From a virus (lineage: Duplodnaviria > Heunggongvirae > Uroviricota > Caudoviricetes): 14,504 nt of DNA. Positions 8,647 through 11,600 of the stretch are shown here, in pieces; positions within the stretch are counted from its first letter, which is position 1; each line of letters starts with the position of its first letter. The DNA lies in IMG/VR virus record IMGVR_UViG_2529292834_000008, positions 1 to 14,504 of that record; one strand, 5' to 3'. Made by a program: the position numbers.

Positions 8647-11600
8647 ACCCGCTCCAGCATTTGAAATAAGCCTTATTGTATTGCAGCACTGGCGTATTTT
8701 TTATTACGTGGGAGCAGGTTGTTTTAAGAGACATTCTGTTCTCTGGCTATGATTTGAGGCCAGGTTAGCCTCAGTGCTGATTTTTTTTACGACAGCAGAA
8801 TGGTGCATTATCGGTGGAGATTTTGTATTTCCTGGCAGGGTCGGTAATGCATCATTCTGATGTTGTAAGCATCGCTCAGAATAACGTTGAGATTAATCGC
8901 GTACTAAGCAAAACTTGGAAATACATCCTTAACCGCCGCACCAGGCGGTTTTTTTTATTCATTTTTTTCATGGCTCGCTACGGCGGGCCTTTTTCATATC
9001 CTCGCCACACCCGGCGCATATCACATCAAATAACGCCGCGCAAAAGGCATCTGCGGGCGCCTTTGACGGGGTGTTTTTACGGGCCGCTGGTGGCCCTTTT
9101 TTATTTACAGGAGAAAAACGTATGTCTGAACCCTTATCTGGTTCCGGCACGGCTGCGGCGCTCGGTGGGGCGACGGTATTCGGGCTGTTTACCGGAACGG
9201 ATTTCGGGATTGTGTTTGGTGCGTTCGCCGGGGCGTTATTTGTGGCAACGATGCCGCAGGCGCTTTCAGTCTGGCGTGTGGTGGCGCATTTTTTGGTGTC
9301 GTTTATCGTCGGCGTGCTGGGGGCGCGCGTGCTGTCAGCCTGGATTGCATCAAAAACAGGGTATGACGGTACATCGGCAGATGCGCTGTGTGCGGTGCTG
9401 GTATCGGTGGTGTCGGTGAAGATTCTGTCGTTCATCCACCAGCAGGATATTGCATCGCTGGTGTCCGGTGTGTTCTCCCGTCTGCGGGGTGGAGGCGGTA
9501 ATGTTAAGTAACCTTCCCGGATTACTGAATGTGGTGTTAAGCACGGTTATCGTGCTGACGCTCTTTTTTTATCGTCGTGGTGATTCCAGACATAAACCGC
9601 TGATGTCGTGGCTGGCCTGGCTGCTGATGCTGCTGTATGCCTTTGCGCCACTTTGTTATCTGTGTGGTCGCTTTCCACCCGGTAACTGGCTGGTCGTCCT
9701 GATTAACCTGGTGTTCTGCGTGCTGGTGATACGAGCACGCGGGAACGTATCAAAAATCCTTTCATTACGGAGGTGAGTATGCCCGGTAAATTCAGATTCA
9801 GTCGTCGAAGTGAGAAAAATCTGGAGGGCGTCAAACCACAGCTGGTTGCTGTTGTTCGCCGTGCGCTGGAGCTGACGGAGGTTGACTTCGGTATTACGGA
9901 AGGCCTGCGCAGTAAGTATCGCCAGAAGCAGCTGGTCGCGGAAGGGAAAAGCCAGACCATGAACAGCCGCCACCTGACCGGTGATGCGGTGGATGTTGTG
10001 GCCTACATTGGTAGCCAGGTGTCATGGGACTGGCCTCTGTACGAGAAAATCGCGCAGGCATTTAAGCAGGCTGCCGCAGAGCTGGGAACTGCCATCGAAT
10101 GGGGCGGGGACTGGAAAACACTGAAAGACGGGCCTCACTTTCAGTTGAAGCGCTAATAACCAGGTGGTTTATGAGCCGAAAACACTGGACACACAGAATG
10201 CCGCGAACGGCGGCGAAATGGGCACTGGTAGCGATACTGGTGCCTTTTTTCCTGGTGGGATGCGTTAGCCTGGATAAGGTGCGCCAGCTTTTCGATACGG
10301 CCTCGCAGGTCTGCGAAATTGTCGAAAGTGCCAGGCAGTGTATGCAGAACTGATCGCCTGTAAGAGCAGAATATTGTTGAATCTAAATTTACTTTGAACA
10401 GTGGCCCGGATGGAAAGGGCATCTAAATAGGAGCAGAAAAATGTTAACTGTAAAAGTCATGTCTCAAAATGGTGGGGAAGAGCTCCATTGCGGGCGTAGC
10501 ATTGGCTATCATCCAGAGCAGCGGAGTATTGCCGTATCGGGAAAGGATGGGAAAGTCATTCTGAAAGATGGAGATATTGCTTATGTAATGAACCAAAACG
10601 CTCAAATAATATCTGTTTATCGGCCCAATAATAGTCAGAAAAACATTTGAATTTCGCAAGTCCAAAGTTCAGTGGTGATCGTTATCAACTAATTGAAATA
10701 ACAAGCTTATGTTTGTGTAATTGGTGATATAGCATGTTAATGCTGAATATCAGCGTCAACATGGAGTTATACAATGGTTTTTAAACACTATTACGTGAAC
10801 AAAAATGCTCAGAGCAATGGCGATCATGAGGTGCATGCTGAGGAATGTTCATATCTTCCTTCTGTAGCTAACCGCGATTACCTTGGTTACTATAGTGATT
10901 GTTCTTCGGCGGTAACAGAGGCAAAGGCCAAAGGATATTCCCGGGTGAATGGTTGCTATTGGTGTGCCAATAAGTGCCACACGTCTTAATCAATTGTCAA
11001 TAAACCATAAAGGCCGCTCTGCGGCCTTTTTCATGTTAAAAAAGATTGCGGCATTACAGCAGCCCTTCACACTGAGTGGCTGCGATAATGTGAGAAATAA
11101 AAAACCGGCAGGGGAAATCCATTGAAGATTTGCCGGTGGCAAAAAGATGGCCATGCTTTCAACCTTAGTCGCAGGGTTACGGAGTGCAACTACGAATGCT
11201 GCCGGTATATGGCTGAATGGCGTTTCAATGATGTACGTCATCTTATCTGTAAATGTTAATGATAAAAGCTCTCATTTGTGCGGGTCCTTCCGGTGGGGTG
11301 GCCTGCCACGGGGCGGGAGCGTCGCGGAAAAAGGCTAGTTTTTGAAATTTTATTCGTCATCACCATCACTGTAATTGATTGATATTACAGTGATTTTATT
11401 TTTATGGTGTCGATTCTGATTGTTTTTTGTTCATCACTAACACCGTTTGCCTAAAGTTGTTCGCAAGATGCATGTTTAAAACATTCTGGAGCGGGTATGG
11501 ATCGAGAGTTAAAAAATCTGACGCTGAATATCAGTCAACTGGCGGCATTGTCAGGTGTACATCGCCAGACTGCTGCGGCAAGGCTGCAAAATCTACCCGT

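What the first reader, a model, noticed from the sequence alone, without database searches (positions are those of the whole stretch)
11280..11400. Putative cos region: GC-rich block and a perfect 12-bp inverted repeat upstream of the small terminase
About 170-190 bp upstream of the Nu1-like start lies GGGGCGGGAGCGTCGCGG (11310-11327), loosely resembling the lambda cohesive-end sequence GGGCGGCGACCT. Further on is a perfect 12-bp inverted repeat, ATCACTGTAATT (11365-11376) and AATTACAGTGAT (11383-11394), separated by 6 bp. These are candidates for the cleavage site and a terminase or IHF binding element.
Basis: partly seen in the sequence, partly recalled or inferred. Interest (0 to 1): 0.4.

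Follow-up and report, generated by a model that had tools for sequence, protein, structure and literature searches.

The report
Lambda-like prophage cos packaging site
The flagged stretch is the DNA-packaging (cos) site of a lambda-like E. coli prophage: cutting site, termination signal and terminase/IHF docking region in the textbook lambda order, so it is a correct but ordinary finding.

Summary
The lambda cosQ heptamer GGGTCCT lies at 11282-11288. The GC block is cosN. Two deposited phage genomes (cdtI, Tritos) end at ...CCACG and begin at GGGCGGGAGCGTCGCGG, which puts the nick at 11310|11311. The predicted 12-nt cohesive end is GGGCGGGAGCGT (11311-11322), matching lambda at 8 of 12 positions, including all of the left half.

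The repeat was slightly misread. It is 11 bp with an 8-bp spacer, not 12 with 6. It lies in cosB, and its spacer plus inner arm ends form a perfect IHF core (TATCAATCAATTA, minus strand, 11372-11384) followed by a T/A tract. A single IHF-like site (at most one mismatch) occurs in each of nine related cos regions; eight lie at about this position and orientation.

Comparison with relatives gives the lambda layout R3-I1-R2(inverted)-R1, with CAYCAC-type R elements. The left arm overlaps R3. The arms' outer bases vary freely among relatives, so the arms are probably not the main terminase sites.

Virion ends were not measured. This is a new member of a known kind, of low interest. One side observation is unexplained: positions in the IHF zone outside its two sequence elements are 7-15 times more diverse than third-codon positions.

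The parts
11282..11288 (+). cosQ (packaging-termination signal), GGGTCCT
   Evidence: Identical to lambda cosQ (lambda 48473-48479). It lies 22 nt from the predicted nick, against 23 nt in lambda. It is nearly invariant in relatives (77-78 of 78 distinct rows at every position) while the DNA to its left is mosaic.
11309..11324 (+). cosN: CG^GGGCGGGAGCGT^CG. Predicted staggered nicks after 11310 (top strand) and after 11322 (bottom strand) give the 12-nt 5' cohesive end GGGCGGGAGCGT (11311-11322).
   Evidence: It aligns with lambda CG^GGGCGGCGACCT^CG, identical at bp 1-6, 10 and 12 and in both flanking CG pairs. The cdtI and Tritos records begin at GGGCGGGAGCGT and end at ...CCACG. The mEp460_4F5 assembly breaks 5 nt to the left. 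bp 1-11 are nearly invariant and bp 12 is T in 63 and G in 15 of the relatives. Nicking itself is inferred.
11323..11353 (+). Spacer between cosN and R3 (CGCGGAAAAAGGCTAGTTTTTGAAATTTTAT), almost invariant
   Evidence: Almost no variation in 78 distinct relatives; two columns (bp 18 and 41) are polymorphic. Through bp 33 it is shared with the cdtI/Tritos cos type, after which the two types diverge. lambda has the related CGCGGGTTTTCGCTATTTATGAAAATTTT.
11354..11369 (+). R3-like small-terminase site, TCGTCATCACCATCAC (a CAY repeat), bp 44-59 from the end
   Evidence: Relatives have CATCATCATCAT or CACCATCACCAC at the same position. Two TCRWCAY matches fall here, and 4 of the window's 20 matches fall within 84 bp. 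lambda R3 lies at bp 50-65 (PMC9026076). Binding is inferred.
11365..11375 (+). It overlaps the 3' end of R3 and the first four bases of the IHF core.
11372..11384 (-). I1: IHF core consensus, TATCAATCAATTA on the minus strand (WATCAANNNNTTR), bp 62-74
   Evidence: Perfect match, one of only 2 in the window (0.72 expected). Each of nine related cos regions has a single IHF-like site (at most one mismatch) in the part scanned, bp 31-132. Eight of them are on the same strand at bp 61-66 to 73-78. lambda I1 is at bp 79-91. The core positions counted (including one N) are conserved (pi 0.007), while two of the four N positions carry 3-4 alleles each.
11384..11394 (+). Right arm of the inverted repeat (ATTACAGTGAT), between the IHF core and the T/A tract
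   Evidence: Positions 11387-11393 are among the most variable of the locus.
11395..11403 (+). T/A tract (TTTATTTTT), the A-tract element of the IHF site as read on the minus strand
   Evidence: Nearly invariant in relatives (pi 0.008). It lies about 9-10 nt upstream of the core on the minus strand, as in the attP H' site (own knowledge of the IHF-H' structure, Rice et al. 1996).
11404..11416 (-). R2-like site, inverted (ATGGTGTCGATTC; reverse complement GAATCGACACCAT)
   Evidence: Inverted copy of the R motif (TCGACAC). Relatives have GATGATGAT or GATGTCGAA here. R3 and R2 are symmetric about bp 76.5, the expected IHF dyad (inference).
11429..11441 (+). R1-like site, direct (GTTCATCACTAAC)
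   Evidence: TCATCAC match. Relatives have TTGTTCATCATC or TTGTTCGACATC after the same T-run. Nearly invariant in relatives.
11497..11991 (+). Small terminase (TerS), 164 aa, Pfam DUF1441, PHROG 141
11991..14093 (+). Large terminase (TerL), 700 aa, gpA family
   Evidence: GpA_ATPase and GpA_nuclease domains. 25% identical to lambda gpA over 625 aa (E 3e-19) and 88% identical to cdtI TerL.

Best explanation
The interval is the cohesive-end (cos) site of a lambda-like, mEp460-type prophage, and it most likely works as lambda's does.

Initiation: dimers of the small terminase dock through their N-terminal winged-helix domains on CAYCAC-type R elements. These are R3 (11354-11369), inverted R2 (11404-11416) and R1 (11429-11441). 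Host IHF binds the core TATCAATCAATTA (minus strand, 11372-11384) and the adjacent T/A tract, and bends the DNA so that R3 and R2 face one dimer.

Cutting: this anchors the gpA-type large terminase on cosN. The terminase nicks after 11310 on the top strand and after 11322 on the bottom strand. The result is 12-nt 5' cohesive ends, GGGCGGGAGCGT.

Termination: cosQ (GGGTCCT, 11282-11288) is needed when the translocating motor reaches the next cos.

Its left arm is the end of R3 plus the start of the IHF core, its spacer is the rest of the core, and its right arm lies in the stretch between the IHF core and the T/A tract, which varies freely among relatives.

Shown: the sequence elements, their conservation pattern, the protein families and the predicted fold. 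Inferred: nicking positions, IHF and TerS binding, and the roles of the individual R elements.
For: Gene order: Q (4336-5031), holin, endolysin, cos, TerS, TerL.

cosQ is identical to lambda's and has near-identical spacing to the nick.

cosN aligns with lambda's: the left half and the flanking CG pairs are identical, and the differences (bp 7, 8, 9, 11) fall in the right half, where natural variation is documented. [quoted passage not shown]

The cdtI and Tritos records start and end at the predicted nick, and their TerL is 88% identical.

There is a perfect IHF core. Each of nine DUF1441-type cos regions has one IHF-like site, and eight share this position and strand. Diversity at the IHF core positions and in the T/A tract is pi 0.007-0.008, against 0.20 at the other positions of the zone.

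CAY-repeat R3, inverted R2 and direct R1 recur in eight related phages with different sequences. The R motif is clustered, with 4 of the window's 20 matches in 84 bp.

TerS variants differ in the N-terminal 60 residues while the C-terminal half is conserved, and cosB differs in parallel.

The TerS N-terminal model best matches the lambda TerS DNA-binding domain among 48,164 PDB chains.
Against: No virion DNA ends were measured for this prophage. I could not establish that the cdtI and Tritos record ends were determined experimentally: the Asakura 2007 paper is not held, and the paper that mentions Tritos does not discuss cos or termini in its main text.

No IMG/VR contig among the 80 rows shown of 120 stretches found starts at the site.

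The R elements were defined after the fact, from a short degenerate motif that is not enriched over the whole window (20 found, 17.5 expected).

It is unknown whether this prophage is still inducible.
Confidence: 0.82

Rival explanations
1. The two arms of the inverted repeat are themselves the recognition sites. A small-terminase dimer would bind them directly as a palindromic operator, centres 19 bp apart, with no need for an IHF-made hairpin.
For: The left arm occupies bp 55-65, where lambda R3 is contacted (bp 55-63, PMC9026076). The 8-bp core ACTGTAAT/ATTACAGT is largely conserved in the mEp460-type cosB. Two different perfect 11-bp versions exist (T-A against C-G at one pair), which is one compensatory change.
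Against: Among 81 loci whose TerS is 99% identical, the outer arm positions carry 2-3 alleles each, and only 14 of 81 keep 11 perfect pairs. An unchanged protein tolerates these changes. The sister cosB of PhiR47_1 (TerS 86% identical) and the other DUF1441-type cos sites have no such repeat but do keep R3, IHF core, R2 and R1. Pairing exceeds the column-shuffle control only marginally (93.3% against 92.4%).
Confidence: 0.1
2. The repeat acts at the RNA level, as a hairpin followed by a U-run in the late transcript that crosses cos. It would be a weak intrinsic terminator or a regulatory structure upstream of the terminase genes.
For: The terminator scan lists it: 11-pair stem, 8-nt loop, tail TTTATTTTTA. 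The RNA fold of 11340-11420 is -19.4 kcal/mol, z -2.96. One-sided changes in relatives are often G-U compatible.
Against: The stem has only 3 G-C pairs. The T-run is equally explained as the IHF A/T element, and it is conserved in relatives whose stems are broken. Covariation is weak and may reflect a few inherited haplotypes. No Rfam family matches. A terminator in front of the terminase genes would only matter without Q antitermination.
Confidence: 0.06
3. The sequence is a cos relic in a defective prophage. It is recognisable by homology but is no longer used for packaging.
For: Most lambdoid prophages in E. coli genomes are defective (general knowledge). The window shows only one side of the phage, up to the large terminase.
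Against: All elements are intact. The cosB haplotype recurs exactly in two other IMG/VR loci (L042, L077). The region is 93-97% identical to propagating phages (phi458, vB_EcoS-569R4, mEp460 derivatives). The TerS and TerL reading frames are complete.
Confidence: 0.15

Closest known systems
Bacteriophage lambda cos (cosQ-cosN-cosB with R3-I1-R2-R1)
   Same: Same order and spacing of elements. cosQ is the identical heptamer. cosN is identical at 8 of 12 positions and in both flanking CG pairs. An IHF site lies between an R element and an inverted copy, and a third direct copy precedes the small-terminase gene, which starts at bp 187 (191 in lambda). The large terminase belongs to the gpA family. 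The small terminase has a winged-helix N-terminal domain (predicted).
   Different: The cohesive end differs at bp 7, 8, 9 and 11. The R elements are CAYCAC-type, not CGTTTCC-type. R3 and the IHF core lie nearer the end (IHF core at bp 62-74, against 79-91). The small terminase is Pfam DUF1441 and has no detectable sequence similarity to gpNu1. TerL is only 25% identical to gpA.
cos of Salmonella prophages Gifsy-1 and Fels-1 (the Gifsy-type cosN described by the Feiss laboratory)
   Same: [quoted passage not shown] Fels-1 reads GGGCGGCAGCGG and has a DUF1441 TerS, a (CAT)4 R3, an IHF-like site at bp 61-73, an inverted GATGATGAT and a direct TTCATCATC. The window shares the bp 8, 9 and 11 changes.
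   Different: The window has an extra C-to-G change at bp 7. Its R elements are CAC-rich rather than pure CAT repeats. Its IHF core is perfect, whereas Fels-1 has one mismatch. TerS is only 40% identical to that of Fels-1. I did not read the Gifsy-1 sequence itself.
cos of phages cdtI (AB285204) and Tritos (OV696610)
   Same: Identical from cosQ through cosN to bp 33. TerL is 88% identical. The IHF core is in nearly the same place (bp 64-76). The record ends mark the predicted nick.
   Different: From bp 34 onward cosB is unrelated. TerS is 42% identical and diverges in the DNA-binding half. This is a different packaging-recognition module joined to the same cutting module.
Phage N15 and PICI (EcCICFT073) cos sites
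   Same: cosQ and cosN are lambda-like, and recognition is through a winged-helix protein bound to the right of cosN.
   Different: Those have a simple cosB with a single R3 and no IHF site. Here all of R3, I1, R2 and R1 are present.

Membership tests
lambda-like cos site | Located between the lysis genes and a small/large terminase gene pair of the gpA type | tested here: met
   Holin 9450-9776, endolysin 9773-10156, TerS 11497-11991, TerL 11991-14093 with GpA_ATPase and GpA_nuclease domains
lambda-like cos site | cosN: a 12-bp sequence with significant identity to GGGCGGCGACCT, flanked by CG at both nick sites | tested here: met
   CG^GGGCGGGAGCGT^CG at 11309-11324. 8 of 12 identical, left half 6 of 6
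lambda-like cos site | cosQ heptamer GGGTCCT about 20-25 bp left of the top-strand nick | tested here: met
   11282-11288, 22 nt from the nick (23 in lambda). Nearly invariant in relatives, 77-78 of 78 distinct rows at every position
lambda-like cos site | Complex cosB: three related R elements, R2 inverted, with an IHF site between R3 and R2 | tested here: met
   The TCRWCAY motif occurs at 11354, 11357, 11407 (minus strand) and 11431. The IHF core is at 11372-11384. Eight related phages have the same layout. This is sequence evidence only.
lambda-like cos site | Virion DNA carries 12-nt 5' cohesive ends made at this site | not testable with these tools
   Indirect only: the cdtI and Tritos records start and end here, and the mEp460_4F5 assembly breaks 5 nt away
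gpNu1 (Pfam Phage_Nu1) small terminase | Sequence membership in the Nu1 family | tested here: not met
   Pfam gives DUF1441 only. BLASTP against lambda Nu1 gives E 19. No PDB sequence match.
gpNu1 (Pfam Phage_Nu1) small terminase | [quoted passage not shown] | tested here: met
IHF binding site | Core WATCAANNNNTTR with an A/T-rich tract about one turn upstream | tested here: met
   TATCAATCAATTA preceded on the minus strand by AAAAATAAA after a 9-10 nt gap. Core positions and tract are conserved, and two of the four N positions are highly variable.
IHF binding site | IHF binds and bends the DNA | not testable with these tools
   Needs a footprint or gel shift
Intrinsic (rho-independent) terminator | G+C-rich stem-loop followed by a U-run, with a stem conserved through compensatory change | tested here: inconclusive
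   Listed by the scan, but only 3 G-C pairs in 11. Pairing is barely above the shuffle control.

The most novel reading that the evidence does not exclude
The stretch between R3 and R2 is a local hot spot of sequence change, not merely unconstrained DNA. Among 81 loci whose small terminase is 99% identical, the 22 positions of bp 56-96 that lie outside the IHF core and the T/A tract have a nucleotide diversity of 0.20. Third-codon positions of the two terminase genes have 0.014 and 0.029. Six columns carry three or more alleles, against none elsewhere in the region compared. Some changes occur together on opposite arms of the inner or outer inverted repeats. Possible causes are template-switch (quasi-palindrome) mutagenesis at IHF-bent, repeat-rich DNA, short-patch exchange between co-resident prophages near the cos end, or diversifying selection on packaging discrimination.
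Probability: 0.25. Interest if true: 0.5.

Novelty: new member of a known kind. Interest (0 to 1): 0.22.

Why it matters
Locating cos fixes the mature genome ends and the gene map of this prophage family. A 301-bp query spanning this cos region matches at least part of its length in 2170 of 5426 complete E. coli genomes, and 99 genomes match at least 80% of it. It also predicts which co-resident prophages or satellites could be cross-packaged: those with the same cutting module, given different recognition modules. It extends the lambda R3-I1-R2-R1 design to small terminases of the uncharacterised DUF1441 family, which supports naming that family as Nu1-type small terminases. None of this changes current understanding of packaging. 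The uneven diversity inside cosB is the only part that might lead somewhere new.

Tried and rejected
- A full-text search for the 12-mer GGGCGGGAGCGT found only two unrelated eukaryotic papers.
- The two papers most likely to document these ends are not held: Vahanian et al. 2017 on cosN natural history and Asakura et al. 2007 on phage cdtI. The paper that mentions Tritos does not discuss cos or termini in its main text.
- Scanning IMG/VR for contigs that begin at the cohesive end found 120 stretches, none at a contig end among the 80 shown, so no physical-end evidence came from there.
- Foldseek with the full-length TerS model gave no significant match (best E 0.055). The N-terminal domain had to be modelled alone.
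- phmmer against PDB sequences found nothing.
- Rfam found no RNA family in or near the interval.
- Promoter-like hexamers in the interval are no more frequent than in shuffles (3 against 2.2), so a promoter reading was dropped.
- I considered that the repeat arms are the terminase sites and that the hairpin is a terminator. Both are kept as low-probability rivals.
- I first thought the hypervariability between R3 and R2 was general. Controls showed about 2-fold excess over third-codon diversity in the lambda-type and VT1-Sakai-type sets, against 8-fold in the mEp460 type, so the claim was narrowed.
- I looked for Gifsy-1 in the phage collection through a TerL search, but it was not among the listed rows, and I did not pursue it.
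Full report
OBSERVATION

The GC-rich block GGGGCGGGAGCGTCGCGG is at 11310-11327 as reported, 170-187 bp upstream of the ATG at 11497.

The inverted repeat is real but was misread by one base. Position 11383 is T, so the perfect arms are 11 bp (ATCACTGTAAT 11365-11375, ATTACAGTGAT 11384-11394) with an 8-bp spacer, TGATTGAT.

It is the only perfect inverted repeat of at least 11 bp with a spacer of at most 20 in the window. Dinucleotide shuffles give one in 22 of 300 trials for the whole window and in 10 of 2000 for the local 521 bp.

CONTEXT

The window is the late region of a lambdoid prophage. 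In order it carries:
- hok/sok and an AbiH-like gene;
- RusA and antiterminator Q (4336-5031);
- a kinase/phosphatase pair and a DNA methylase;
- a tRNA cluster;
- holin (9450-9776) and endolysin (9773-10156);
- about 500 bp of non-coding DNA;
- a 164-aa small terminase (11497-11991) and a 700-aa large terminase (11991-14093).

The large terminase has the GpA_ATPase and GpA_nuclease domains and is 25% identical to lambda gpA over 625 residues (E 3e-19). The small terminase is Pfam DUF1441 and PHROG 141 'terminase small subunit'. It has no detectable sequence similarity to lambda Nu1.

cosQ AND cosN

Compare the lambda right end plus left end with the window:
- lambda: ...ACGGGTCCTTTCCGGTGATCCGACAGGTTACG^GGGCGGCGACCT^CGCGGGTTTTCGC...
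- window: ...GCGGGTCCTTCCGGTGGGGTGGCCTGCCACG^GGGCGGGAGCGT^CGCGGAAAAAGGC...

The cosQ heptamer GGGTCCT is identical (11282-11288). It lies 22 nt from the predicted nick, against 23 nt in lambda.

The 12-bp cohesive-end sequence is identical at bp 1-6, 10 and 12, and both flanking CG pairs are kept. The differences (bp 7, 8, 9, 11) lie in the right half. The Feiss laboratory reports that natural variation is common there, and gives Gifsy-1 as differing at bp 8, 9 and 11 (PMC4669245). Fels-1 reads GGGCGGCAGCGG.

The deposited genomes of phages cdtI (AB285204) and Tritos (OV696610) both begin GGGCGGGAGCGTCGCGGAAAAAGGCTAGTTTTT and end ...CTGCCACG. Their large terminase is 88% identical to the window's. 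The linear assembly of mEp460_4F5, which has the window's own cos type, breaks 5 nt to the left of that point.

I therefore place the nicks after 11310 (top strand) and after 11322 (bottom strand), giving the cohesive end GGGCGGGAGCGT. This is an inference. I could not confirm that the record ends were measured, and none of the IMG/VR contigs shown starts there.

Among 78 distinct relatives, cosQ and bp 1-11 are almost invariant. bp 12 is T in 63 and G in 15.

cosB

Eighty IMG/VR loci with a 99% identical small terminase and eight phages with diverged DUF1441 small terminases were compared. The eight are PhiR47_1, CP-1639, VT1-Sakai, mEp213, Chris1, Gifsy-2, Fels-1 and Kp4865-4.

All show the same plan to the right of cosN:
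- a CAY-repeat block, for example CATCATCATCAT (here TCGTCATCACCATCAC, 11354-11369);
- an IHF-like core;
- an A/T-rich tract;
- an inverted copy of the repeat, GATGATGAT or GATGTCGAA (here ATGGTGTCGATTC, 11404-11416);
- a T-run;
- a direct copy, TTCATCATC or TTCGACATC (here GTTCATCACTAAC, 11429-11441).

This is lambda's R3-I1-R2-R1 layout, which the literature also ascribes to Gifsy-1 (PMC9026076).

The degenerate motif TCRWCAY is not enriched in the window as a whole (20 found, 17.5 expected). However, 4 of its 20 matches fall within 11354-11437, one of them inverted.

The IHF core is a perfect match to WATCAANNNNTTR on the minus strand (TATCAATCAATTA, 11372-11384). It is one of two matches in the window, against 0.72 expected. 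In each of the nine DUF1441-type cos regions there is exactly one site with at most one mismatch in the part scanned (bp 31-132). In eight it lies on the same strand, at bp 61-66 to 73-78. The same scan finds lambda's I1 at bp 79-91.

R3 and R2 in the window are symmetric about bp 76.5. That is about where the IHF dyad should fall, a few bp upstream of the WATCAA on the minus strand. This rests on my own knowledge of the IHF-H' complex and is an inference.

WHAT THE INVERTED REPEAT IS

- The left arm is the last five bases of R3 plus the first four bases of the IHF core.
- The spacer is the rest of the core.
- The right arm lies between the core and the T/A tract.

In 81 aligned relatives, the core positions counted (pi 0.007) and the T/A tract (pi 0.008) are conserved. 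The two strongly variable spacer bases (three and four alleles) are N positions of the consensus, and the outer arm positions vary freely.

Fourteen of 81 relatives have a perfect 11-bp repeat, 26 have 8 bp, and the rest have 3-9 bp.

Pairing of the arms across haplotypes is 93.3%, against 92.4% in column shuffles, with three isolated double changes. An outer stem (bp 54-59 with 94-99, the R3/R2 edges) shows one covarying pair, A-T to G-C in six haplotypes.

The repeat is absent from the sister cosB types. I conclude that it is a real but secondary feature of this cosB haplotype. It is not the primary terminase site. An RNA hairpin or terminator role is possible but poorly supported.

SMALL TERMINASE

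The AlphaFold model of residues 1-67 (28-sequence alignment, pLDDT 80.8) has strand-helix-helix-wing-helix topology.

Within the DUF1441 family the N-terminal 60 residues vary while residues 70-145 are nearly constant. The cdtI small terminase is 42% identical overall, with similarity concentrated in the C-terminal half, and its cosB is unrelated from bp 34 onward.

So the DNA-binding domain and cosB change together, while cosQ, cosN and TerL stay the same. This parallels the lambda/phage 21 specificity pairs (PMC4669245).

MECHANISM

The site most likely works as lambda's does. IHF bends I1. A TerS dimer reads R3 and R2, with R1 accessory. TerL is anchored on cosN and makes nicks staggered by 12 bp. 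cosQ serves termination.

The sequence anatomy, the conservation, the families and the predicted fold are shown. Binding, bending and nicking are inferred.

COMPARISON AND NOVELTY

This is a lambda-like cos with a Gifsy-type cosN plus one extra change (C7G), a complex cosB, and a DUF1441 small terminase. Every sequence-level defining feature of a lambda-like cos that I could test is met. Membership of the Pfam Nu1 family is not met, although the predicted fold and the role match.

The same cosN already marks the ends of GenBank records from 2007 and 2022. The mEp460-type cosB does not seem to have been dissected in the literature I could search. I class it as a new member of a known kind, of low interest.

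SIDE OBSERVATION

Among the 81 loci, the 22 positions of bp 56-96 that lie outside the IHF core and the T/A tract have pi 0.20. Comparison values are:
- 0.014 at TerS third-codon positions;
- 0.029 at TerL third-codon positions;
- about 0.015 in the flanking cosB.

Six columns in the zone carry three or more alleles, and none does elsewhere in the region compared.

The VT1-Sakai-type set shows the same zone as its most variable part (0.205 against 0.092). The lambda-type control shows only a mild excess (0.040 against 0.0175).

Choosing loci by TerS identity may depress the coding diversity. Even so, the contrast with the adjacent non-coding flanks remains. I have no tested explanation. Template switching at the nested repeats, short-patch exchange among co-resident prophages, and diversifying selection are all candidates.

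Noticed in passing
window 11366-11406 (and L009-L088, L098-L142): Positions between R3 and R2 that lie outside the IHF core and the T/A tract are 7-15 times more diverse (pi 0.20) than third-codon positions of the adjacent terminase genes. Six columns have three or more alleles. The VT1-Sakai-type cos shows a similar, weaker contrast, and the lambda type only a mild one.
   Followed up: partly
window 11322 (bp 12 of cosN) in relatives L009-L088: The last base of the cohesive end is T in 63 and G in 15 of 78 distinct relatives. Closely related prophages would therefore make ends with a terminal mismatch if their DNAs were joined. The Feiss laboratory studied such mismatches for lambda and N15.
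   Followed up: no
L003 1-30 (LR595868.1, mEp460_4F5): This record reads GGGCGGGAGCG-CGG and lacks 3 nt (TCG) exactly at the predicted right nick. It also starts 5 nt left of the left nick. This is probably an assembly artefact at cohesive ends, and a weak hint that the ends are where predicted.
   Followed up: no
window 11009-11029: A strong bidirectional terminator-like hairpin (AAAGGCCGC TCT GCGGCCTTT plus a T-run) lies just after the 71-aa ORF 10774-10989 (PHROG 4298, function unknown), inside what should be the Q-dependent late transcript.
   Followed up: no
window 11040-11280: About 240 bp of non-coding DNA left of cosQ is 85-93% conserved in phages cdtI and phi458. It contains an imperfect 18-bp hairpin (11052-11090) and a second one around 11104-11140. 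There is no Rfam match and the function is unknown.
   Followed up: no
window 11147-11338 (+): A 63-aa ORF runs across cosQ and cosN and matches PHROG 17397 (E 5e-8). It would be split in the linear virion DNA, so this is probably a family of spurious gene calls across cos.
   Followed up: no
window 1310-1635: A hok/sok toxin-antitoxin module: sok RNA (Rfam RF01794, 122 bits) and a Hok/Gef ORF at 1423-1635. Next to it are an AbiH-like ORF (303-914, minus strand) and a Fic/DOC ORF (2040-2534).
   Followed up: no
window 5101-6680: A eukaryotic-type Ser/Thr protein kinase (279 aa) is followed directly by a PP2C phosphatase (247 aa), just downstream of antiterminator Q. A DNA methylase follows at 7248-8297.
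   Followed up: no
window 8347-8656: tRNA cluster. ARAGORN calls four genes (Met-CAT, Lys-TTT, Lys-TTT, Gly-TCC) but Rfam lists only three. The one at 8424-8500 is missed at the gathering threshold.
   Followed up: no
window 11200-11500 against E. coli genomes: Parts of this 301-bp cos region match in 2170 of 5426 complete E. coli genomes, with up to 7 places per genome. Only 99 genomes match at least 80% of the length. Many strains therefore carry several prophages that share parts of it.
   Followed up: no
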